From: Escherichia phage vB_EcoM_MM02
Sequence record: MK373784.1
Strand: one strand, 5' to 3'
DNA length: 64,000 bases
Part shown: positions 6,316 to 41,075 of the stretch, piece after piece
Numbering within the stretch: the stretch's first letter is position 1
Layout of the letters: each line of letters opens with the position of its first letter
Made by a program: the position numbers and the translations under genes
The notes under the pieces: generated by a model
Databases searched by the model: none
What the model saw: only the letters and a program-made list of their open reading frames with translations
Told to the model about the DNA's origin: nothing

Positions 6316-6566
6316 ATGTATTCTCTTCGAATGAAGTCCTCTACATATTTTAACATGTCATCTCTATCAGCAAAATATTCATCTAGTTCCGCATACATAA
6401 CAACACCTGGTGCATACTCGCAAGTAACATACATTGTTCCAAAGAAACGAGGAGTTGATTCCTCGTAATTCTCAGTCCATTCAACGATGCCAATATAACC
6501 GTCACCAATACTAGATTCATGACGATGGATTTCATAATCAGTCTTCGCCATTATACGCATCCTCAA
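6312..6566 (-). CDS. Hypothetical protein (T4 46.1 position)
   Basis: 84-aa ORF overlapping the gene 46 start by 4 nt. Confidence 0.45.
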   Translation of the reverse strand: MRMRIMAKTDYEIHRHESSIGDGYIGIVEWTENYEESTPRFFGTMYVTCEYAPGVVMYAELDEYFADRDDMLKYVEDFIRREYI

Positions 6567-6795
6567 TACACGCTTCAGCCATTTTAAGAATAGAGCCGGG
6601 AGTATCGTTGTCCATTATATTAAAGCTAAATTCAATAGCCCAGTCGGTGCAGACATGAACTGCTTTAACTTCATTGCCTTCAACGCGTAATGGCTCAATC
6701 CAATACTTGATAGTGTTCTTGAATCCATCATCGTCTTTAACGTCCATTTCAACTTCAAGTCCAAGCCCAGCATTATTAAATTCATCTAAAGTCAT
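6538..6795 (-). CDS. Hypothetical protein (T4 46.2 position)
   Basis: 85-aa ORF between 47 and 46. Confidence 0.45.
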   Translation of the reverse strand: MTLDEFNNAGLGLEVEMDVKDDDGFKNTIKYWIEPLRVEGNEVKAVHVCTDWAIEFSFNIMDNDTPGSILKMAEACIEDAYNGED

Positions 6796-7811
6796 TGTGT
6801 TGCCTCAATATAAAGTTCGTTGGAATATTTGACCAGCGCTTCTCTGTCTTCGTCTGAGATATCTGGAATCGCGTCAATATATTCTTTAATGATATCTTGA
6901 AGTGATTTAATCTCGATTTCCTGGTCGTCATCAGATTCAACACTGTTATCAACTTTAGAAACCATGCGAAGAGAGTGAACTACTTTTTCAAGTTCAGATT
7001 CAAACTTAGTCAACTCTGAATCAATTTCTGATACTATAACACGTACGGCTAGATTAGTATAATCAGAATAATTGATTTTGCCTTTAAACGGATAAGTGAT
7101 TCGTCGATGCCATGTTGTTTCATTAGGAATAAATTCCATACGTTCAACGTCAGTGTCAAATACCCAGAATCCGCGAGGGTCGTTCTCATCACCTGCAGTA
7201 AGGGTCCATGGTGTCCCAATATATTTGACGTTAGCAGCTTCAGAGATTGTGTGGAAGTGGCCAGACCAGACTTGTTTATAGGTCTTTAAGAAATCAGGTT
7301 CAAGCCCATGAGACTTCATTCCTTTATAGAAATAAAAGCCATTCAGTTCCCAGTGCCCAACACAATACGCTGCGGAAGAAGTCTTGATGTGCTCTAAGAT
7401 TTCACCTGTATTTTCTTCACACATCCATGGAACGATATCAATCAGACATCCGTCAAAATCTACAGTAGTTGGATGCTCGTAAATAGTAAAGTTTTCAAAT
7501 TGAGTCAACAATTCAGAAACAGTGTTAGGTGTTATTGTATTCTTAAACGCCATGTCATGGTTTCCTATCGTGACATGAACGTGAATGCCTGCTTTAGAAA
7601 TCATATCAACAATTTCACGATTGAATTCCATTGTACGATGTGTTATTGCTTTACGGACGTCAAACCAATCGCCGTACTGAATCCAAGTTTTAATCCCGTG
7701 TTTCTTAGAGTATTCAATTGCTTGACGAATACCATCACGTTGAATATCTTGAACCCATGGGTCGTCTTGTTTGACTCCGATATGGAAGTCGCCTAAGTGC
7801 AAAATTTTCAT
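6792..7811 (-). CDS. 47: Recombination endonuclease subunit gp47 (Mre11/SbcD-like)
   Basis: 339 aa; calcineurin-like phosphoesterase motifs (LGDFH, GNHD); same length as T4 gp47. Confidence 0.9.
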   Translation of the reverse strand: MKILHLGDFHIGVKQDDPWVQDIQRDGIRQAIEYSKKHGIKTWIQYGDWFDVRKAITHRTMEFNREIVDMISKAGIHVHVTIGNHDMAFKNTITPNTVSELLTQFENFTIYEHPTTVDFDGCLIDIVPWMCEENTGEILEHIKTSSAAYCVGHWELNGFYFYKGMKSHGLEPDFLKTYKQVWSGHFHTISEAANVKYIGTPWTLTAGDENDPRGFWVFDTDVERMEFIPNETTWHRRITYPFKGKINYSDYTNLAVRVIVSEIDSELTKFESELEKVVHSLRMVSKVDNSVESDDDQEIEIKSLQDIIKEYIDAIPDISDEDREALVKYSNELYIEATQ

Positions 7812-33743: not shown

Positions 33744-34025
33744 CTATTTTTCTGAAGCGCCTGAAATATATTTTTCAAGACGTTGTTTCATCAGCGAGCC
33801 GTTCTTAGCGATTTCTTCTGGTTTATCGCACATACGCAACAAGGCTTCAAGCTTAGCGATATCGCTGGTACGTTCAAATTTGCGAGTATCTATCTTACTA
33901 GCAAGTTCAGAAATACGTGCTAATAGACTTTCAGCTTCAACCAAAGCTGCACCTAGCTTAGTTGCAAATGTGTCAGTAGCTTCGTTAAGAATAGATTCTG
34001 ATAAAAATTCACTATATGTTTTCAT
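33744..34025 (-). CDS. Internal protein-like (CTS-bearing)
   Basis: Starts [11 protein letters not shown]; its ATG overlaps the e stop (ATGA). Confidence 0.5.
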
Positions 34026-34510
34026 ATATACGCTTTCCAAGTTCCTGTTTTAAATGTTGAGATTACGCGTTTCGCGCGATTAGGTGTCTGACGATACCAT
34101 TTAGATTGGGCTAGATTTACTGCCGCTTCATCCCAACGTTTCTGTTGAAGCATACGAAGAGAATTAGTAAAACCGGCGACGCCTGATACACCCATTTGGA
34201 AGACCATATTGACCAATGCACACCGACGAACCGCATCTAAAGAATCATATACCGGTTTAAGTTTAGCATTACCCAAGATTCCGCGAACGGCTTTATCAAC
34301 GTCTTCATTAAATAGCTTTTCAGCCTCATCAAGGGTAATTGTACCGTTGCATTTACGTCCGATCATTCTGTCAAGTTCAGCTTTAGCTACGGCTAAAGAC
34401 GGGGTCTTTGTTACTAAATGGCCTATGCCAATAGTCCAAAAGCCTTCGGTGTCTTTGTATAAAGTCAGTCTAAGACCTTCGTCATTACGAAGCATTTCAA
34501 ATATATTCAT
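34022..34510 (-). CDS. e: Lysozyme (endolysin) e
   Basis: [31 protein letters not shown]... recognised as T4 lysozyme; 162 aa from ATG at 34510. Confidence 0.9.
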
Positions 34511-34544: not shown

Positions 34545-35003
34545 TTATAGGAGTGTAGTGAGCACCTTATATAATGATTTGCCCATTACATATTCCCATT
34601 GAGAAGGTTTAATTAAAGCGAATGCATCAAATTCAGGAATCTGTCGTCCGTCCGGGAATGCATGATAGGAATTACAAACACTGTTTCTGAATTGCTCGTG
34701 CTCTACAGGGATGGTATATAGGAACAGATGAATATTCTTATTGTCTGAGTAATGATGTTCACCTAGGTCTTTCAGGAAGGCAGGGTCATATTGTGTAAAC
34801 CCAGTTTCTTCTTCGCATTCACGAATAGCGGCTTCAATAGGAGATTCGCCAGGTTCGACACGGCCTTTAGGAATATCCCACCGATGAGCTAATGCACCTT
34901 TAGGACGAGAACCAGTTACACGGCCCATGAATAACTCTTTATCTTTTGACATGAAGATAATACCGGCTGATAGCTCTTTCACTTTATTTTTCTTACTCAT
35001 CAT
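34545..35003 (-). CDS. nudE: Nudix hydrolase NudE
   Basis: 152 aa; Nudix box GRVEPGESPIEAAIRECEEETG; downstream of e as in T4. Confidence 0.8.
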   Translation of the reverse strand: MMSKKNKVKELSAGIIFMSKDKELFMGRVTGSRPKGALAHRWDIPKGRVEPGESPIEAAIRECEEETGFTQYDPAFLKDLGEHHYSDNKNIHLFLYTIPVEHEQFRNSVCNSYHAFPDGRQIPEFDAFALIKPSQWEYVMGKSLYKVLTTLL

Positions 35004-35229
35004 CTCGGTCCCATGATTTGGCCATTAATTCGGACATAAATTCTTCAATACGCGTTTCTTTAGATGGACTTTCACTATTAGAGACCGCAAGTTTGTAATC
35101 TGCAATAGGACAGAACATATCAAGGTCCATATTAAAATCGTCTTTGATTTTTTCTTCTGACACATCTTTATCGTATGTGTACAGATAACTATCACATGAT
35201 TCTGATTTAATGTAAATTGCTATACTCAT
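34993..35229 (-). CDS. Hypothetical small protein
   Basis: Likely start MSIAIYIK with AGGAA SD. Confidence 0.3.
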   Translation of the reverse strand: MSIAIYIKSESCDSYLYTYDKDVSEEKIKDDFNMDLDMFCPIADYKLAVSNSESPSKETRIEEFMSELMAKSWDRDDE

Positions 35230-35717
35230 CTCAAATTCCTGCATTCGGTAATAAAACGTTCAACTTCATTATTCTTGGCCTTTATCTTGTCTTTACGTTC
35301 CTGTAAACTACTTTTAACAAGATTAATAATGATGCCTACAGTACCGCCGCCAATGATGCCACCAACAACACTTATGATAATAGATGCTAATAAGATAGCA
35401 ATAATATCAACAAAACCGAAAGAACTCACCTTAGTACTAAAAAACCATACCGACGGTACAAATATAATCCATCCTGTTATCCATTGGCACTTATTGAAAA
35501 ACTTTTCAAGCTCAGCTTGAGTTGTTCGTATTACTTCATCGATAGGTTGATATCCATTAATGTATCTGTTCACGATAATACCTGCTGGCTGGTCGATTTT
35601 AAATTCTTGGCAAATATGTTTCACTAAGTAGGATGGACATCCTGTCCAATCTACTGAATAGTATGAAATACCTTCGTTGCCATCGTCTATATTAGACCAA
35701 TATGTTTTGTTAATCAT
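35226..35717 (-). CDS. Hypothetical membrane protein, C-terminal FITECR motif
   Basis: 163 aa; one or two TM helices; ends ...ERFITECRNLR. Confidence 0.45.
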   Translation of the reverse strand: MINKTYWSNIDDGNEGISYYSVDWTGCPSYLVKHICQEFKIDQPAGIIVNRYINGYQPIDEVIRTTQAELEKFFNKCQWITGWIIFVPSVWFFSTKVSSFGFVDIIAILLASIIISVVGGIIGGGTVGIIINLVKSSLQERKDKIKAKNNEVERFITECRNLR

Positions 35718-36403
35718 TACCAGCCTTCCATAGGGAATTCCAGATAAACTTGAGCATTGACACGAATTTCATTGGTAATCTTTTTAACTCGGTCTGTATT
35801 ACGAGATACACGTCCGAACCAACGCCATCCGTTACTAATTGCACGAGAACCAGTGTGCCATGTTTGCCAATCAAACTGAAGAAGAGTACGATCTGGAGCT
35901 TCCCATTTCTCTAGTTCACCTTTTTCAATTTTTTCGAGGACTTCTTTGTGCCACTGGCGATAGATAAGTTCGCCATCAGGAATCTGACTGAACTCTGCAG
36001 TTCCTGTTGCAAAATGAGTAGGACACACGTCAGCGTTAACAAGACCAAGAATATGTTCAGAATGGTAACGAGGGTTGTCATAGTCAGGTTGTCCTGCAGT
36101 AATAAAGTGTTGACCAACTGGAATATCAGGGCGAGGAACATCGTCATGGTGGTATCCAGGAATAGCAGGATACCAACCAGGCATCAGCATATGAACCCGA
36201 GAATCAAATACAACATGTTGATTAGTCCAATCAATTGGGAGATTGGCAATAAAGCTACGAGTGATTGAGCCACCATTATCCCAAGCAAAACCCAAATCAC
36301 AATTAAAGAACATTGGTTCATTTTTGATTCGGTCATTTTGTACGTTATGTGCAAAACTACCAACTGCACGAGCTTGACTATTAAAAGTTTTAGAACTATT
36401 CAT
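35717..36403 (-). CDS. Hypothetical 228-aa protein
   Basis: His/Asp-rich segments (GYHHDDVP); no confident family assignment. Confidence 0.45.
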   Translation of the reverse strand: MNSSKTFNSQARAVGSFAHNVQNDRIKNEPMFFNCDLGFAWDNGGSITRSFIANLPIDWTNQHVVFDSRVHMLMPGWYPAIPGYHHDDVPRPDIPVGQHFITAGQPDYDNPRYHSEHILGLVNADVCPTHFATGTAEFSQIPDGELIYRQWHKEVLEKIEKGELEKWEAPDRTLLQFDWQTWHTGSRAISNGWRWFGRVSRNTDRVKKITNEIRVNAQVYLEFPMEGW

Positions 36404-36404
36404 A

Positions 36405-36710
36405 TTATTTTCCTCGACATTCTTTAATGAAATTTTCTAGATTGGTAGATTCAATAGCTTTTTTACGAGCTTCTGCATGTTCTTCTTCAGACAATTTACA
36501 TTTATAATTAACCCAGACATTATGGTCGAAACTAGTCGTGGCATATAATAACAATGCTCCAACGAATAGCAAAAACGGCGATAAGAATACAAAACCAGGA
36601 ACACCATCCATACTGTAAGCCTTTTGTAATACTGCAACAGAAAGAGCTGCGTAAAAAAGTGATACAAATATTGTTAAAAGACCAATTCGGTTGGTTTCGC
36701 CTAATTTCAT
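36405..36710 (-). CDS. Hypothetical membrane protein, C-terminal FIKECR motif
   Basis: 101 aa; two TM helices; ends ...ENFIKECRGK. Confidence 0.45.
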   Translation of the reverse strand: MKLGETNRIGLLTIFVSLFYAALSVAVLQKAYSMDGVPGFVFLSPFLLFVGALLLYATTSFDHNVWVNYKCKLSEEEHAEARKKAIESTNLENFIKECRGK

Positions 36711-36768
36711 AATATTCTCCTCATGTTTTAATAGGACTACTATAACATAGTCCTATCAGTTTGTACAC

Positions 36769-36987
36769 TTATTTTGACATTTCTTCGATGTCACGACGAT
36801 ACCCATCACGAACTTCACGAAGAGCTTCAAGGCCACACATAGGCTCGATACCAGTAATGTGAACTTGATTAATCTGATACTCTACATCTTCTAACTGAGC
36901 GAAAACATAACGACGTTCTGCTGCACAACCAGGTTTAGCTTTACCGAAACGTTTATTCAAAGTAGTCATTTTTATATCTCCATTCAC
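36769..36987 (-). CDS. Hypothetical protein
   Basis: 72-aa ORF. Confidence 0.4.
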   Translation of the reverse strand: MNGDIKMTTLNKRFGKAKPGCAAERRYVFAQLEDVEYQINQVHITGIEPMCGLEALREVRDGYRRDIEEMSK

Positions 36988-37049
36988 TCATTTGTTTTGA
37001 TAGGTCTATAGTATCAACAACTACAGACCTTGTAAACTGTTTTGCGAAA

Positions 37050-38006
37050 TTATTTGAAAGGTTTTACCATATGGAAATTTTGTTTGAAACGTTTGACGTA
37101 ATCGTCGTGTCCTAAGCTTTGGTACATACTTACTACTTTGCTATAATTTTCCCAAGCGAACTCACGGAACCATCCTGATGTGATTGATGTACAGACCTTT
37201 TCAAGGGCCATCATAAAACTATCACGTGGATGGATTTTAAAGTCGTTAGGAATCTGTGAACGTTCAAGAGCTAATACACAAGCTTCTTCATATACACCGG
37301 CTAATTTAACCATTTCTGGGAATGATTCGAACTTCTCGCGCGATGTCATAACTTCTGAGCCTTCTTTCATATAAAACTTATAAGCAGGCTGGTCAGTTAG
37401 TGCAATGGCTTCATGGATAGTATCATGGTCATACGTATAGATGTCATCTTTAAAGAACGCACTTTTAGAAGTGTCAAGAACTGGGTGAGCATAATTCAAG
37501 GTTTCTTTCTGGCGTTTCAGCATAATTTCAGTAAGTTCATCGTTCAGTGTAACACCTTTACCACGAAGATACTGAATATGGTTCATAGTCTTTAAAAAGA
37601 ATGGATTATTTTTCTTGAAACGATGAGACATCTTAATTGCAAGACATATCTCAGGAGTTGCCCAGTAAAACCCGTTCAAACGGTCTTTAGTCAAATTTTT
37701 CTTGGCGTATTTTAAAAGGTCATAAGAAGACGTGAAATCTTCAGGAGTGAGTTCACCGACTAGTTCGCGAACGTTAGTGATAGCCGGAACGATGTATGCT
37801 TCAAAATGAGTTTCGCGTCCATTATGGAAGCATTTGAAAACTTGGACATCAGGGTTATCTTGGTGAACATATACACCCATCATTTGATTTTTGAATGCAT
37901 TCCAAGAACCTTGGTCCGCAATAAAGTCCCAATCACTATTTTTAATAGCGCTAGAATCAATAAGACCGTGATAGTGAAGTGCACGAGAACCAATAACTAA
38001 CATCAT
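37050..38006 (-). CDS. Hypothetical 318-aa protein
   Basis: Largest ORF in the e-tRNA island; N-terminal VIGSRALHYHG...SDWDF is weakly NTase-like. Confidence 0.45.
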   Translation of the reverse strand: MMLVIGSRALHYHGLIDSSAIKNSDWDFIADQGSWNAFKNQMMGVYVHQDNPDVQVFKCFHNGRETHFEAYIVPAITNVRELVGELTPEDFTSSYDLLKYAKKNLTKDRLNGFYWATPEICLAIKMSHRFKKNNPFFLKTMNHIQYLRGKGVTLNDELTEIMLKRQKETLNYAHPVLDTSKSAFFKDDIYTYDHDTIHEAIALTDQPAYKFYMKEGSEVMTSREKFESFPEMVKLAGVYEEACVLALERSQIPNDFKIHPRDSFMMALEKVCTSITSGWFREFAWENYSKVVSMYQSLGHDDYVKRFKQNFHMVKPFK

Positions 38007-38034
38007 AATATTTTCCTCGGATTAATTCATTAAC

Positions 38035-38286
38035 TTAAATTTCACGACATGCGATATTATATTCATCCCAGAGGTCATCATGTGAAGCCTCTACCAATGG
38101 AACGATTGTACCGTTTATGTCTTCATTATAAGGGCAAATTGTACAGTGCGCATCTTCGAATCGGATGCCTTTGTGTTCAGATTTTTTATAACGCATATCG
38201 AATATCTTTGCAAACTTTTCACGAGTAATGGTTTTACCAACCACTTTGGTTCCTATACTTTCGTAATAAATCATTGTGGACTCCAT
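38035..38286 (-). CDS. Hypothetical protein
   Basis: 83-aa ORF. Confidence 0.4.
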   Translation of the reverse strand: MESTMIYYESIGTKVVGKTITREKFAKIFDMRYKKSEHKGIRFEDAHCTICPYNEDINGTIVPLVEASHDDLWDEYNIACREI

Positions 38287-38336
38287 TTGTTTTGATAGGA
38301 CTACTATAACATAGCCCTATCTTGTTGTAAACTGTT

Positions 38337-38534
38337 TTAGCAAGAATAACTAGATGATACCCAGCCTTGAACAGTGATACTATTGTGGGATAATGAGATC
38401 GCGTCCTGGAGATTCAGACCTGCGTTATCTTCAATCCATAATGTAACTTCTTCGCGTTCTTCTGTTGCAATTTGGAACAGGTTTTCCAGAGCAGCTACTG
38501 CCGTACGTACAGCACAATCTAATTCACGAGACAT
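38337..38534 (-). CDS. Small protein of the C-terminal GWVSSSxxC family
   Basis: 65 aa; ends ...VQGWVSSSYSC. Confidence 0.4.
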   Translation of the reverse strand: MSRELDCAVRTAVAALENLFQIATEEREEVTLWIEDNAGLNLQDAISLSHNSITVQGWVSSSYSC

Positions 38535-38543
38535 ATTGTTTCC

Positions 38544-38816
38544 TTAGCAAGTGTGAGAAGATGCGACCCAACCACCGGTTTCGAGGCTCAGGTTGTAGTC
38601 GTATTGGTAAACGTCAGCCCATTCAGCATAGCCGTTTTTTGTACAACGTTCAAGATCGGCTTTAAGATGTCCGGGTGAATGATAGGTTCCACCCATACCA
38701 TAAGCTGGGTACAAGTTGAACGTTGTGTTTTGTTTATCAGCAATTTCTTTGGCAGCCTCAATAGCTGCATAGATTTTTGCTACAGCTTCAGCCAGTTCGG
38801 TTTGTTCTTTAGACAT
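38544..38816 (-). CDS. Small protein of the C-terminal GWVSSSxxC family
   Basis: 90 aa; ends ...ETGGWVASSHTC. Confidence 0.4.
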   Translation of the reverse strand: MSKEQTELAEAVAKIYAAIEAAKEIADKQNTTFNLYPAYGMGGTYHSPGHLKADLERCTKNGYAEWADVYQYDYNLSLETGGWVASSHTC

Positions 38817-38825
38817 AATGATTCC

Positions 38826-39131
38826 TTAGCACAACGCAGAAGACGAAACCCAAGCACCTTCAGTAATAACGTAACCATTACCTTCACGCTTAACATCGCC
38901 ACCATTATTTTCAATTTCATCTTTCATCCACTGGGATACGATTTCACCCTTAGGATAATAAGTACGACCGCTACCATAATCACCTACAGAAAATGATACG
39001 GCATATTGGTCTGCGATCTTTGTTGCTTCTTCTTCGATACGTTCAGCTTGATTCAGAAGTTTATAAATTGCATCTGAAGCGGATTTGGCATCATTAAACT
39101 CTGGTACTTTAATTTCAATAATCTTACTCAT
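38826..39131 (-). CDS. Small protein of the C-terminal GWVSSSxxC family
   Basis: 101 aa; ends ...TEGAWVSSSALC. Confidence 0.4.
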   Translation of the reverse strand: MSKIIEIKVPEFNDAKSASDAIYKLLNQAERIEEEATKIADQYAVSFSVGDYGSGRTYYPKGEIVSQWMKDEIENNGGDVKREGNGYVITEGAWVSSSALC

Positions 39132-39487
39132 TTTCTACATTCCTTAATAAAGTTTTCGATTGTTTCATTTTCACGTCTAGCTAGGAGTTCATTATAACTA
39201 ATCATTTGAGAAGCGTAAACCTTTTTATTTTTCTTGTTGTGGTTTATAAAATCGTAGTAAAAATAGACTATAGTACAAAATGATGCGATGGATGCAAAGG
39301 CTTGGGTATACCGTAAGTCCTGCCATTGGTCTGTGAATCCACCAGTGTTCCCTATAAATCCTAACACAACGCCGTCAATAAGAAATCCAACTAATCCAAA
39401 GGCAAATCCCATGCCAATACTCATAATAAAAATTAGAATGTTCTCACCAAGAGAAGGCCATACGGTTAAGAGTTGAGGCTTTTGCAT
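39128..39487 (-). CDS. Hypothetical membrane protein, C-terminal FIKECR motif
   Basis: 119 aa; about 3 TM helices; ends ...ENFIKECRK. Confidence 0.45.
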   Translation of the reverse strand: MQKPQLLTVWPSLGENILIFIMSIGMGFAFGLVGFLIDGVVLGFIGNTGGFTDQWQDLRYTQAFASIASFCTIVYFYYDFINHNKKNKKVYASQMISYNELLARRENETIENFIKECRK

Positions 39488-39861
39488 CTTATTTCCTTAA
39501 CGAATTCCATAGCTTCTTCATATTCATACTTTTTAACAGCTTCATCATACTGAGCTTGGGCTTTTGCGCACTGAACTCTCCATTCTCTTAATCGGGCTCT
39601 GTGATGACGGCCTTGGTGCCAATATCCTACCCAATTAATAGGCATTAATAAAAACGGTACAATAAGTGGTGCGACGAACATTAATGAAAATGCTGCATCA
39701 GACGATATAACTTCACTAGAATCTAAAACAGCTCCTATAATCATAAAGATTAAAAATGCTAAAGCTAAAATAGGGCCAAATAGTACTTCATTTGGGATTA
39801 ATTTACGCTTGTATTCATACGCCCAGGGCTTACTTGGCATGTATAGGGTTGGCTTTGACAT
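39466..39861 (-). CDS. Hypothetical membrane protein
   Basis: Likely start MSKPTLYMPSK; two TM helices; C-terminus ...EFVKEIRCK. Confidence 0.4.
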   Translation of the reverse strand: MSKPTLYMPSKPWAYEYKRKLIPNEVLFGPILALAFLIFMIIGAVLDSSEVISSDAAFSLMFVAPLIVPFLLMPINWVGYWHQGRHHRARLREWRVQCAKAQAQYDEAVKKYEYEEAMEFVKEIRCKSLNS

Positions 39862-40453
39862 ATTCTCTACATTCCATAATAAATTGCTCAAGGATTAAAT
39901 TGTTAGTGAAATTAGGACTAACAACCATAGTTTCATAAAGCGCATCAATAGCACTTAAAGCATCAACTCTTTTAAGCAAAGGCTTGCCTTCATACATAGT
40001 TTCAGAATCGATGATTAACGTAAAGTAATATTTTTTATTATCGACTAGAACTTCTGTATCGATATAAAACATATTAGACCTCAGAAGCTTATCTCTAAAA
40101 CCATAATAATCTTCAGAGCGTTCGCTGATATATTCCCATTCAGTGTTTAAACAACAAACAGACCATGTAGGAGCAACGAAATCAGTGAATCTAATATCAT
40201 GGTCTGCAACTAGTTTAGCAATAGCTCCGATATCATGAATCATAATACCTGGGGCTAATAAAGATTTTCTGCTATGGCTAGCCGTTTTCTCGGTGGTCTC
40301 ATAAGAAGACGACCAGTACCATTTACGTCCGGTTGCAACATATCGTAATGAATCAACTAAAGACGTAGGTGGATTTACCTTATCTCGGAACTCTTCGAAC
40401 ATTGAGTCAATATCATTATTTTGGTTTCGCATGTTAACTCCTTTATTATCCAA
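39830..40453 (-). CDS. Hypothetical protein with FIMECR motif near C-terminus
   Basis: 207-aa ORF. Confidence 0.4.
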   Translation of the reverse strand: MDNKGVNMRNQNNDIDSMFEEFRDKVNPPTSLVDSLRYVATGRKWYWSSSYETTEKTASHSRKSLLAPGIMIHDIGAIAKLVADHDIRFTDFVAPTWSVCCLNTEWEYISERSEDYYGFRDKLLRSNMFYIDTEVLVDNKKYYFTLIIDSETMYEGKPLLKRVDALSAIDALYETMVVSPNFTNNLILEQFIMECREYVKANPIHAK

Positions 40454-40481
40454 AAGGAGGACCGGAGTCCTCCGTATTATT

Positions 40482-41075
40482 TTATTTCAAAGAGTTAATA
40501 TATTCTTGTACATCAGCAGAAGTGGTTTCGACGCCGGCTGGAGTGCCATTGAACGTTTCAACACGAGTCAGAGTGTCTTCGATATCAACCTTAGTCAGTG
40601 CAGCTATTTCAATTACATCATCGGCCGTAGAGATACCAAGGGCATTGGCTGCTCGAGTTTCACGAATGTATTCGAGTTTGATTGCCAGGTTCTGACGAGC
40701 ATCGTCAAGTTCAACCACCTTACGAGCAATTTCAATTCGCATAGCGGCGTACCCGTCAGCTTTTGTATTAAGTTGTTCGGCAGTTCGACGATACAGAAGA
40801 CCAAGCTTAGCATGCATAGTAACATCTTGTCCTTCAGCCAGGAGCTTACGAATTTCACGTTCCTTAGAAGCGGCTTGCTTGTTCTTTTCATTAACAAGTT
40901 CGCGAATACGTTTTTCTTCATTAATAGATTTAACAGAAGCCGTTTTTAGTTCTTTGATTTGGGTAATCAACTTATCTGCAGCTGCGTTATACTGTTCTTC
41001 GACAGTCAGATTTTTAGCCATAGCAGTATCCAGTTTAGTGCGAATGAATTCAACAAGTTTCTTCAGTGTGTTCAT
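40482..41075 (-). CDS. Hypothetical coiled-coil protein
   Basis: Likely start [10 protein letters not shown] with AAAGG SD; predicted all-helical. Confidence 0.45.

What the first reader, a model, noticed from the sequence alone, without database searches (positions are those of the whole stretch)
35226..40453. Family of small membrane proteins ending in (E)NFIKECR
At least four ORFs share a C-terminal motif: 35226..35717 (...ERFITECRNLR), 36405..36710 (...ENFIKECRGK), 39128..39487 (...ENFIKECRK) and 39830..40453 (...EQFIMECREY...). A fifth, 39466..39861, has ...EFVKEIRCK. Three of these are predicted TM proteins. The motif codons overlap the RBS or start of the next gene, but synonymous differences between copies argue for protein-level conservation. 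This could be a cytoplasmic tail signal shared by a set of membrane proteins, or a conserved gene junction that promotes cassette exchange.
Basis: seen in the sequence. Interest (0 to 1): 0.55.

Follow-up and report, generated by a model that had tools for sequence, protein, structure and literature searches.

The report
Shared tail motif, T-even early proteins
Five neighbouring early genes of an RB69-like T-even phage end in the same short peptide (L-x-x-F-I-x-E-C-R), which is conserved as protein rather than as DNA, overlaps the next gene's ribosome-binding site, and marks the points where whole genes have been cleanly deleted in related phages.

Summary
F[IV]xECR occurs four times in the six-frame translation of the 64 kb, against about 0.04 expected. 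All four lie within 11 residues of a stop, in adjacent minus-strand genes.

The window is a Mosigvirus (RB69-like). The genes are T4 e.5, e.4, e.3, e.2 and the Mosigvirus-only paralogue RB69ORF133c. Four of the five are two-helix inner-membrane proteins; e.5 is soluble.

The motif is conserved at the protein level. Across 19 distinct tails from five genera, Phe is 19/19, Arg is 18/19 using four codons, and Cys is 15/19. Synonymous sites are saturated. In e.2 relatives of 24-31% identity, three of the five invariant columns are the tail's I, C and R.

The ribosome-binding site of the next gene sits at different codons in different tails, so the motif is not simply that site. AlphaFold places the e.2 tail at the tip of a cytoplasmic helix continuous with TM2.

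The repeated tail DNA is also a recombination junction. e.2 is precisely deleted in T2, RB32 and a third T4-like (Tequatrovirus) contig, and e.4 is missing in JS98.

Function is unknown. I infer a shared docking or assembly helix. This is a new variant of known kinds and moderately interesting.

The parts
39830..40432 (-). e.5 homologue. Soluble, 200 aa. Ends ...LILEQFIMECREYVKANPIHAK, with motif codons at 39866-39883. Its last 32 nt overlap the start of e.4.
   Evidence: phrog_2607, E 1.7e-95. RB69 and T4 annotation as e.5. 47% identical to T4 e.5, with the tail invariant. No hydrophobic segment.
39466..39861 (-). e.4 homologue. Two-TM protein, 131 aa. Its 56-residue cytoplasmic tail ends ...AMEFVKEIRCKSLNS, with degenerate motif codons at 39487-39504. 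Its last 22 nt overlap the start of e.3.
   Evidence: phrog_2604, E 1.2e-63. Topology from charge distribution. Full-length paralogue of e.3 by hhalign, probability 95.7%, E 8.7e-9.
39128..39487 (-). e.3 homologue. Membrane protein, 119 aa. Ends ...ETIENFIKECRK, with motif codons at 39134-39151. ATGA overlap with the next gene (38826-39131).
   Evidence: phrog_2330, E 5e-50. tblastn finds T4 e.3 at 36% identity. The tail is kept in T4 as EFVIDCRKIK with different codons.
36405..36710 (-). RB69ORF133c homologue. Mosigvirus-only two-TM protein, 101 aa. Ends ...NLENFIKECRGK, with motif codons at 36414-36431. The next gene's ribosome-binding site (GAGGAAA) lies after the motif, and its ATG is at 36403.
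   Evidence: phrog_9798. Restricted to Mosigvirus. TM2 plus tail is homologous to e.2: phrog_2203 E 1.2e-4; hhalign probability 93.7%, E 1.8e-7.
35226..35717 (-). e.2 homologue. N-terminal soluble domain, two TM helices and a 32-residue tail, 163 aa. Ends ...NEVERFITECRNLR, with motif codons at 35238-35255. ATGA overlap with the next gene (34993-35229).
   Evidence: phrog_2203, E 3.3e-55. Pfam PF26896 Phage_T4_Y06M is recorded on relatives. AlphaFold2 model, pLDDT 74.6: residues 102-162 form one helix comprising TM2 and the tail.
39130..39151 (-). Reference copy of the 22-nt direct DNA repeat that encodes the tail (TTTATTAAGGAATGTAGAAAAT on the coding strand). The other copies are at 39862-39883 (91% identical) and 35234-35255 (77%).
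   Evidence: the repeat finder family D4.

Best explanation
The thing is a short C-terminal peptide, consensus [LI]-[EN]-x-[FW]-[IV]-x-[ED/x]-[C, or I/V/L/S]-[RK]. It closes the products of the T-even early genes e.5, e.4, e.3 and e.2 and of the Mosigvirus paralogue ORF133c.

Shown:
- The peptide is conserved as amino acids, not as nucleotides.
- It lies on the cytoplasmic side, at the far end of a long, charged helix that continues TM2. It sits 30-55 residues from the membrane in the four membrane proteins, and at the end of a predicted C-terminal helix in soluble e.5.
- L(i-3), F(i), I(i+1) and C(i+4) fall on one face of that helix.
- Its codons are dual-coded with the next gene's translation start. 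The Shine-Dalgarno sequence is placed on whichever purine-rich codons (K-E, E-E, R-K, R-N or R-G-K) give the right spacing.
- e.3 and e.4 are full-length paralogues. ORF133c is a paralogue of the TM2-plus-tail part of e.2.
- Because the tail DNA recurs in direct orientation at gene ends, crossovers within it have removed exactly one gene in frame. e.2 was lost this way in T2, RB32 and a third T4-like (Tequatrovirus) contig, and e.4 in JS98.

Inferred:
- The tail is a shared helix-packing determinant.
- Through it these co-transcribed early proteins, membrane-anchored and soluble, either bundle with one another or dock onto one common partner at the inner face of the membrane.
- The family grew and shrinks by unequal recombination in a unit that runs from tail to tail, which carries the tail along with the downstream start site.
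For: Non-chance occurrence: 4 observed against 0.04 expected, all at gene ends.

Protein-level selection:
- In 19 distinct tails from Mosigvirus, Tequatrovirus, Dhakavirus, Gaprivervirus and Kanagawavirus, Phe is 19/19 (TTT 15, TTC 4). Cys is 15/19 (TGT 9, TGC 6). Arg is 18/19 through AGA 7, AGG 4, CGA 3 and CGT 4.
- At the core codons pS is about 0.8-1.0 and pN about 0.16-0.22.
- The e.3 and ORF133c tails are both ENFIKECR, with 4 synonymous and 0 non-synonymous differences.

e.2 family:
- Found by phmmer against 1.84 billion representatives. In 15 sequences at 24-31% identity the invariant columns are P58, G124, I156, C159 and R160.

Spacing and RNA structure:
- The motif-to-ATG distance varies from 0 to about 40 nt, and the Shine-Dalgarno sequence sits on different codons.
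- There is no shared RNA structure. Four of the five junctions fold no better than shuffled sequence.

Helix and topology: AlphaFold2 model of e.2; charge distribution.

Paralogy.

The motif also closes a fourth, soluble family and divergent e.5-like proteins.

Recombination:
- T4 e.3 end, contig L011 and T4 e.2 end align so that the crossover falls in TGCAGGAAA, an in-frame deletion of about 486 bp.
- The same junction is present in T2 and RB32.
- 64 of 505 Tequatrovirus records fall below 80% coverage of the T4 e.5-nudE stretch. Six of the sampled records show the two-piece 76% pattern and T2 a single piece of 72%.
- JS98 versus SP18: the e.4 indel is bounded by GRGGTTCnnAATG.
Against: - No partner, oligomer or phenotype is known, so the docking or assembly role is inference from helix geometry and conservation only.
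- Amphipathicity of the tails is modest and not significant against shuffles.
- The Cys is replaced by I, V, S or L in e.4 and in some e.3-like proteins. The Glu is replaced by G, Q, N or M in other lineages, so only F, [IV] and R/K are general.
- I looked for lineage-wide co-variation of the fourth position among paralogues, which a common partner might produce, and did not find it.
- The genes are individually dispensable in nature: e.2 is deleted or frameshifted, e.3 is internally deleted, and e.4 is lost.
- The tail instances are not phylogenetically independent, so the pN and pS figures are descriptive.
- The e.5 structural model was unusable (pLDDT 36.5).
Confidence: 0.6

Rival explanations
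1. Nucleotide-level element. The conserved thing is the translation initiation region of the next gene (Shine-Dalgarno sequence plus an A/U-rich upstream enhancer, used for translational coupling). The amino-acid motif is a by-product of reading it in the upstream frame.
For: - Every tail overlaps or abuts the next start.
- Arg is AGG or AGA exactly where those codons form the Shine-Dalgarno sequence, for example TGC AGG AAA ... ATGA.
- TTT ATT is A/U-rich.
- The e.5/e.4 junction is identical over 24 nt between T4 and RB69.
- Four of the five junctions are unstructured, as start regions usually are.
Against: - The Shine-Dalgarno sequence sits on different codons in different tails (K-E, E-E, R-K, R-N, R-G-K), and the motif-to-ATG spacing ranges from 0 to about 40 nt.
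- Arg is also encoded by CGT or CGA (7 of 18), Cys by TGT or TGC, and Phe by TTT or TTC.
- pS is saturated while pN is low.
- Cys codons have no role in a ribosome-binding site.
- The JS98/SP18 ORF124 tail (FLEYCR) is followed by no overlapping gene.
Confidence: 0.07
2. Recombination signal. The junction is maintained because it lets gene cassettes be swapped, duplicated or deleted, as a coding-region analogue of PeSLs. The peptide itself has no function.
For: - Two gene-sized in-frame indels have both end-points in the repeat.
- The e.2 deletion form accounts for up to about 13% of Tequatrovirus records.
- The DNA repeat is 22 nt at 77-91% identity within the window.
- Proteins with little or no detectable similarity to one another sit in front of e.4/e.3-type genes with the same tail.
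- The e.5/e.4 and e.4/e.3 junctions are alike on both sides of the ATG.
Against: - Between paralogues the DNA is mostly too divergent for homologous recombination. Only 9-13 nt are identical at the observed crossovers, which is microhomology.
- Selection for evolvability would conserve nucleotides, but synonymous sites are saturated.
- The e.2 tail is invariant across lineages with different neighbours.
- Other indels in the cluster do not use the junction: the internal e.3 deletion and the VR7 replacement that ends inside e.4.
Confidence: 0.15
3. Passive relic of common descent. All tail-bearing genes descend from one ancestor by tandem duplication, and the tail is simply the slowest-diverging remnant with no specific role.
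For: - e.3 and e.4 are full-length paralogues.
- ORF133c and e.2 share TM2 plus the tail.
- The genes lie in tandem in one hyperplastic region.
Against: - A relic would not be the most conserved segment of families that have otherwise diverged to 24-36% identity.
- e.3 and e.2 share only the 16 tail columns.
- Soluble e.5 and the ORF124/gp134 family have no other similarity to the membrane proteins.
Confidence: 0.1
4. Prohead-protease or capsid-targeting-like site. F-I-x-E resembles the (L/I)-x-E cleavage rule of T4 gp21 and the internal-protein targeting sequence MKTYQEFIAE. Both of these are recalled from memory.
For: The neighbouring internal-protein-like ORF 33744-34040 begins [10 protein letters not shown] after its upstream residues. 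Several tails read E-F-[IV]-x-E.
Against: - The tails are C-terminal, on early membrane proteins, and cleavage would remove only 2-15 residues.
- The Glu is not conserved in the wider families (G, Q, N, M, Y).
- The invariant residues are F, C and R, which the protease rule does not require.
Confidence: 0.02

Closest known systems
T4 genes e.2, e.3, e.4 and e.5 (UniProt Y06M-type 'uncharacterized protein in e-segB intergenic region'; Pfam PF26896 Phage_T4_Y06M for e.2 and PF26876 for e.5; PHROGs 2203, 2330, 2604, 2607) and RB69ORF133c (phrog_9798)
   Same: The window genes are orthologues of these. They occupy the same position between e.6 and nudE and have the same architecture and the same tails.
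   Different: Nothing differs at the gene level. The databases list them as separate families of unknown function. The motif shared across the families, and its use as a junction, are not annotated, and I found no paper that contains the motif strings.
PeSLs (promoter-early stem-loops), which mediate modular shuffling in T4-type hyperplastic regions (PMC2839356, PMC4122927)
   Same: Both are short conserved repeats at gene boundaries in a hyperplastic region, and indel end-points fall in them. Three elements that look like PeSLs lie within this very cluster, at 36717-36774, 36989-37045 and 38281-38338.
   Different: PeSLs are intergenic, combine a promoter with a stem-loop, and are conserved as DNA. 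The tail junction is coding and only about 18-22 nt long. It has no promoter or hairpin and is conserved as protein with saturated synonymous sites.
Deletions between short direct repeats in T4, such as the classical rII deletion end-points (recalled from memory, not checked here)
   Same: The crossovers observed here lie in 9-13 nt of identity: TGCAGGAAA and GRGGTTCnnAATG.
   Different: Here the repeats are functional gene ends in the same reading frame. The product is therefore an intact upstream gene still coupled to the next start, not a null allele.
C-terminal docking peptides shared by many proteins, such as the SSB C-terminal tail, the FtsZ C-terminal peptide and clamp-binding tails of T4 gp43, gp33 and gp55 (recalled from memory)
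   Same: A short, terminal, conserved peptide carried on otherwise unrelated bodies is the working analogy for the inferred role.
   Different: There is no sequence similarity, no partner is known here, and nothing was tested.
T4 internal-protein capsid targeting sequence (MKTYQEFIAE; recalled from memory)
   Same: It is a short tag shared by divergent proteins encoded nearby, with an E-F-[IL]-x-E core. The window ORF 33744-34040 carries [10 protein letters not shown].
   Different: That tag is N-terminal, cleaved, and carried on late virion proteins. The Glu it depends on is not conserved in the tails.

Membership tests
T4 e.2 family (phrog_2203 / Pfam PF26896 Phage_T4_Y06M) | Significant full-length profile match | tested here: met
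   Window 35226-35717 against phrog_2203: E 3.3e-55 over residues 1-161 of 163. Relatives found by phmmer carry PF26896.
T4 e.2 family (phrog_2203 / Pfam PF26896 Phage_T4_Y06M) | N-terminal W..[LI]D[DE]...G....[VI]DW domain, two hydrophobic helices, and position directly upstream of the 130c/nudE genes | tested here: met
   Alignment A5, hydropathy and synteny.
T4 e.3 / e.4 families (phrog_2330, phrog_2604) | Profile match and synteny e.5 > e.4 > e.3 | tested here: met
   E 5.2e-50 and 1.2e-63. The order is identical in RB69 and T4. The two families are homologous to each other (hhalign probability 95.7%).
T4 e.5 family (phrog_2607 / PF26876) | Profile match; soluble protein upstream of e.4 | tested here: met
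   E 1.7e-95. PF26876 is precomputed on the close homologue P0008. No TM segment. My local Pfam copy gave no hit.
PeSL (promoter-early stem-loop) shuffling cassette | Intergenic early-type promoter (-35 and -10 hexamers) | tested here: not met
   The tail junctions are coding, and no promoter-like site lies on them. The promoter-like sites with a TG motif lie in the true intergenic repeats at 38331-38303, 37036-37008 and 36767-36739.
PeSL (promoter-early stem-loop) shuffling cassette | Conserved stem-loop | tested here: not met
   Four of the five junction RNAs fold no better than shuffles (z +0.3 to +1.3). The one hairpin, at e.2/130c, is not shared.
PeSL (promoter-early stem-loop) shuffling cassette | Indel end-points fall in the repeat | tested here: met
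   e.2 deletion (L011, T2, RB32) and e.4 indel (JS98 versus SP18). So it works like a PeSL in this one respect without being one.
Pure ribosome-binding-site / translational-coupling element | Fixed spacing to the downstream start and nucleotide-level conservation | tested here: not met
   Spacing ranges from 0 to about 40 nt. The Shine-Dalgarno sequence sits on different codons. pS is 0.8-1.0 against pN 0.16-0.22.
T4 capsid targeting sequence / gp21 cleavage site | N-terminal location and a conserved (L/I)-x-E site | tested here: not met
   The location is C-terminal. The Glu is replaced by G, Q, N, M or Y in many family members. The definition of the site itself is from memory.
Shared docking or oligomerisation helix (functional class, not a sequence family) | Demonstrated tail-dependent interaction | not testable with these tools
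   Only single-chain prediction is available. The e.2 model shows a helix, but no partner could be tested.

The most novel reading that the evidence does not exclude
The tail is a portable address tag. It would be a short helix tip through which a changing set of early phage effectors, both membrane-anchored (e.2, e.3, e.4, ORF133c) and soluble (e.5, the ORF124/gp134 family), plug into one common hub at the inner membrane. That hub could be a bundle of the tails themselves or a single host or phage protein. Because the tag's DNA coincides with the next gene's start site, recombination within it would swap, add or remove effector bodies while always regenerating an intact tag and intact coupling. 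That would be an exon-shuffling-like, plug-and-play arrangement in a phage operon.
Probability: 0.2. Interest if true: 0.75.

Novelty: new variant of a known kind. Interest (0 to 1): 0.45.

Why it matters
T4 is the best-studied large phage, yet roughly half of its genes, including e.2 to e.5, still have no function.

A motif that ties at least four otherwise unrelated orphan families in one early operon to a common determinant gives a concrete handle. Point mutants of F, C and R, tail peptides as bait, and multimer prediction could reveal a shared partner or complex.

It also shows a way, other than PeSLs, in which hyperplastic regions gain and lose whole genes without breaking reading frames or translational coupling. 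In addition it corrects annotation: T4 e.2 is a frameshifted remnant of a 162-residue protein.

If the tail has no partner, the finding is an ordinary paralogue family with dual-coded gene ends.

Tried and rejected
1. The search for related loci in IMG/VR with single proteins and with an e.3 alignment gave only close relatives.
2. The three homologous-protein searches returned only relatives of at least 72% identity or fragments.
3. Pfam, NCBIfam and PADLOC gave no meaningful hit for the five proteins. PDB sequence searches gave none.
4. The AlphaFold2 model of e.5 from a shallow alignment had pLDDT 36.5 and was not used for fold search. Foldseek of the e.2 model against BFVD found only its own family. 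The afdb50 library was unavailable.
5. I tested the idea that the fourth motif position (E, G or other) co-varies among paralogues within a genome, as a common partner might cause. Contig L018 has D, Q, E and G in its four tails, so I rejected it.
6. I tested the idea that the JS98 and Kanagawavirus proteins upstream of e.4/e.3 are unrelated replacements carrying a captured tail. The result is only partly supportive. Kanagawavirus gp140 aligns weakly with e.5 over 153 residues (E 9e-4), so they may be very divergent e.5 homologues.
7. A conserved RNA structure at the junctions was rejected.
8. The capsid-targeting or gp21-site resemblance was rejected (see rival explanations).
9. The RegB site (GGAG) is present at only some junctions and was not pursued.
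10. Literature searches for the motif strings and for e.3, e.5 and e.6 in T4 found nothing relevant.
11. A whole-genome scan of T4 or RB69 for the motif outside this cluster was not done. Only the 64-kb window and loci of about 16-18 kb in five other phages were scanned.

Full report
**Identity of the region.** The window is 98-99% identical over 35000-40700 to many Mosigvirus (RB69-like T-even) phages. All genes concerned are on the minus strand. By annotation of RB69 and T4 and by PHROG profiles, the five ORFs are:
- 39830-40432, e.5
- 39466-39861, e.4
- 39128-39487, e.3
- 36405-36710, RB69ORF133c
- 35226-35717, e.2

They lie between e.6 and nudE, next to the lysozyme gene e and denV. In T4 the genes e.5, e.4, e.3 and e.2 are contiguous. 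In Mosigvirus about nine further genes sit between e.3 and e.2.

**Check of the observation.**
- F[IV]xECR occurs four times in the six-frame translation of the 64 kb. All four are in these genes, 1-11 residues from the stop. The looser FVKEIR of e.4 is the fifth copy.
- Shuffled DNA gives 0.04 matches on average, and residue-shuffled ORFs give 0.007.
- The tails overlap or abut the next gene's start at every junction.
- Two corrections apply. Four of the five proteins, not three, have two hydrophobic helices (the second helix of e.3 is read from its sequence and the RB69 annotation). And e.5 most likely starts at the ATG at 40432 rather than the TTG at 40453.

**Protein-level or DNA-level conservation.** I collected 19 distinct tails from the window, RB69, T4 and other Tequatrovirus contigs, JS98 (Dhakavirus), SP18 and VR7 (Gaprivervirus) and IME523 (Kanagawavirus).
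- Phe is 19/19 (TTT 15, TTC 4).
- The next residue is I, V or L through six codons.
- Cys is 15/19 (TGT 9, TGC 6), and otherwise I, V or S.
- Arg is 18/19 through AGA 7, AGG 4, CGA 3 and CGT 4.
- Over the core codons the proportion of synonymous differences is about 0.8-1.0, and of non-synonymous differences 0.16-0.22.
- The window's e.3 and ORF133c both end ENFIKECR, with four synonymous and no non-synonymous differences.
- T4 e.3, which is 36% identical overall, keeps EFVIDCR with largely different codons.
- A phmmer search of 1.84 billion representatives with e.2 found eleven relatives of 26-36% identity. All end in [FW]IxxCR[KRN].
- In the 15-sequence e.2 alignment the only invariant columns are P58, G124, I156, C159 and R160, so the tail is the most conserved part of the protein.

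These instances are related by descent, so the counts are descriptive.

**Relation to the ribosome-binding site.** The Shine-Dalgarno sequence of the next gene is built from different codons in different tails:
- K-E (AAGGAA) in e.3 and e.4
- E-E (GAGGAA) in the JS98-type e.2
- R-K or R-N (AGGAA) in the T4 and window e.2
- R-G-K (GAGGAAA), after the motif, in ORF133c

The distance from the Cys codon to the downstream ATG runs from 0 to about 40 nt. Arg is AGG or AGA where it supplies the purines, and CGT or CGA where it does not. The tails are therefore dual-coded, but the motif is not the ribosome-binding site. Four of the five junction RNAs fold no better than shuffles, and no structure is shared. 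No promoter-like site or terminator lies on the junctions.

**Who shares the tail.**
- e.3 and e.4 are full-length paralogues (hhalign probability 95.7%, E 8.7e-9, 112 columns). The similarity includes the N-terminus M[SQ]KPxL.
- At the DNA level the e.5/e.4 and e.4/e.3 junctions resemble each other on both sides of the ATG. This fits a tandem duplication whose unit runs from tail to tail.
- ORF133c, which is confined to Mosigvirus, matches TM2 plus the tail of e.2 (phrog_2203 E 1.2e-4; hhalign probability 93.7%).
- e.3 and e.2 share only the 16 tail columns.
- Soluble e.5 keeps F[IV]xECREY[VA]K in T4, RB69, JS98 and SP18. The JS98 protein matches it only in the tail. The Kanagawavirus counterpart (FVDQCR) aligns weakly over 153 residues.
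- A fourth, soluble family of 92-109 residues ends in F[IL]xxCR[GRS]. Its members are JS98/SP18 ORF124, Kanagawavirus gp134, L018 2951-3250 and L020 6685-6981.
- Looser versions (F[AV]xx[LI][RK]K) close further small membrane proteins in metagenomic relatives.

The general pattern is [LI]-x-x-[FW]-[IV]-x-x-[C or aliphatic]-[RK].

**Structure and topology.**
- Positive charges cluster at the N-terminus and in the tail, and the inter-helix loops are acidic or neutral. This puts the tails in the cytoplasm.
- AlphaFold2 with a 12-sequence alignment models e.2 with mean pLDDT 74.6. Residues 102-162 form a single helix, so TM2 continues straight into the charged tail with the motif at its tip.
- L(i-3), F(i), I(i+1) and C(i+4) fall on one helical face, the arrangement used in helix-helix packing.
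- Amphipathicity is modest.
- The e.5 model was too poor to use.
- Fold and sequence searches against viral models and the PDB gave nothing beyond the family itself.

**The tail as a recombination junction.** Within the window the tail DNA is a direct repeat of 22 nt (39130-39151, 39862-39883 at 91% identity, 35234-35255 at 77%).
- In a T4-like (Tequatrovirus) contig, L011, the e.3 tail reads ...EFVIDCRKLK* and runs directly into nudE. A three-way comparison with T4 places the crossover in TGCAGGAAA, the Cys-Arg-Lys codons. It removes about 486 bp, that is e.2 exactly and in frame.
- T2 and RB32 carry the same junction.
- 64 of 505 Tequatrovirus records cover less than 80% of the T4 e.5-nudE stretch. 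Six of the sampled records show the two-piece 76% pattern and T2 a single piece of 72%.
- JS98 lacks e.4. Its e.5-like gene ends in a hybrid of the SP18 e.5-like and e.4 tails, with the switch inside GRGGTTCnnAATG.
- Other changes in the cluster do not use the junction. phiE142 and the LF82 phages have a 240-bp deletion inside e.3. VR7 has a replacement ending inside e.4. T4 itself has a 1-nt deletion in an A-run that splits e.2.

Recombination at the tails is therefore documented, but whether it is enriched there remains to be counted.

**Interpretation.**
- The descriptive part is well supported. The feature is a protein-level C-terminal motif at the tip of a cytoplasmic helix, dual-coded with the next start. 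It is shared by paralogues and by otherwise unrelated neighbours, and it is used as a deletion junction.
- The functional part is inference. I think the most likely role is a common helix-packing surface through which these co-transcribed early proteins bundle together or bind one partner.
- The family's spread is most simply explained by unequal recombination in a tail-to-tail unit. That process also explains why the soluble protein upstream of the array carries the tail.
- The pure ribosome-binding-site explanation is refuted as a sole cause.
- The pure recombination-signal explanation fits the indels but not the saturated synonymous sites.
- The relic explanation does not fit the tail being the best-conserved segment.
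- The resemblance to the internal-protein targeting sequence fails on position and on the non-conserved Glu.

**Comparison with what is known.**
- The genes are known orphan genes with PHROG families, and e.2 and e.5 also have Pfam families.
- The closest known system for the junction behaviour is the PeSL (PMC2839356, PMC4122927). PeSL-like elements lie in the true intergenic gaps of this same cluster. The tail junction differs in being coding, much shorter and conserved as protein.
- I found no paper containing the motif strings. The library searched is incomplete.

**Verdict.** The feature is real. It is a new variant of known kinds (paralogue family with a shared terminal motif; repeat-bounded gene loss in a T4 hyperplastic region). 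It is of moderate interest, mainly as a handle on a set of T4 orphan genes.

Noticed in passing
L007 (T4, MT984581.1) 6360-6847: The annotated T4 e.2 (102 aa) is a frameshifted remnant. A 1-nt deletion in an A-run (TATA-AAAATCC, against TATAAAAAATCC in three relatives) splits a 162-aa gene. The unannotated second ORF (6656-6847) carries TM2 and the tail ...NNFITECRKLK and ends in an ATGA overlap with an in-frame ATG of nudE, 15 nt inside the start annotated in this record.
   Followed up: yes
window 38337-38534, 38544-38816, 38826-39131 (minus strand): A second tandem family of small acidic proteins (RB69ORF136c, 137c and 139c) all end in G-x-W-[VI]-S-S-S-x-x-C-stop. A conserved 48-nt junction (75% identical) covers the tail and the next start. 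JS98, SP18, VR7, Kanagawavirus and metagenomic relatives have 3-5 copies each. The profile hit is phrog_899, of unknown function. In the RB69 reference the 139c gene is split into 139c and 138c, but it is one 101-aa ORF here.
   Followed up: partly
window 36717-36774, 36989-37045, 38281-38338: PeSL-like repeats lie in the true intergenic gaps upstream of ORF133c, the 72-aa ORF 36769-36987, and the 135c homologue. Each has an early-type promoter (TTTACA/TGTACA, 17 nt, TATAGT/TACTAT, with TG) wrapped around an inverted repeat. The first and third copies are 81% identical over 58 nt.
   Followed up: partly
L005 (Escherichia phage phiE142) 9975-10000; also LF82 phages and ECO26.1: Some Mosigviruses have an internal deletion of about 240 bp in e.3. 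It removes the TM region and shifts the frame but retains the last 90 nt, which include the tail DNA and the next gene's start region.
   Followed up: yes
L023 (RB32) 1351-1720: RB32 e.3 is frameshifted in a long A-run, and the record annotates only a 98-aa product. This is either a sequencing error or a real mutation. The downstream frame still reads ...EFVSDCRKLK*.
   Followed up: partly
window 38035-38286 (minus strand): The RB69ORF135c homologue ends ...WDEYNIACREI*, a partial look-alike (aromatic-x-I-x-C-R). Its JS98 and Kanagawavirus homologues end differently (...DYVAEI, ...TYCYEI), so this is probably chance.
   Followed up: partly
window 33744-34040 (minus strand): This 98-aa ORF carries [10 protein letters not shown] near its start. 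That looks like the capsid targeting sequence of T4 internal proteins (recalled from memory). It is probably an internal head protein, annotated only as hypothetical in relatives.
   Followed up: no
L012 6829-7260; L018 4561-4968; L020 8656-9051: A further family of 131-143-aa two-TM proteins lies upstream of the 132c homologue in Kanagawavirus-like phages. It ends in G-F-[AV]-[DG]-x-[LI]-[RK]-K, a degenerate form of the same tail pattern.
   Followed up: no
window 37050-38006 (minus strand): A 318-aa protein with Pfam DUF7277 plus DUF7275 (E 9e-28 and 3e-78). It is conserved in every T-even genus examined, within the otherwise variable insert between e.3 and e.2.
   Followed up: no
window 40456-40473: A strong GC-rich hairpin followed by a T-run (GGAGGACTCCGGTCCTCC TTTTGG) lies between e.6 and e.5. 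It is the only terminator-like site bordering the e.5-e.4-e.3 block.
   Followed up: no
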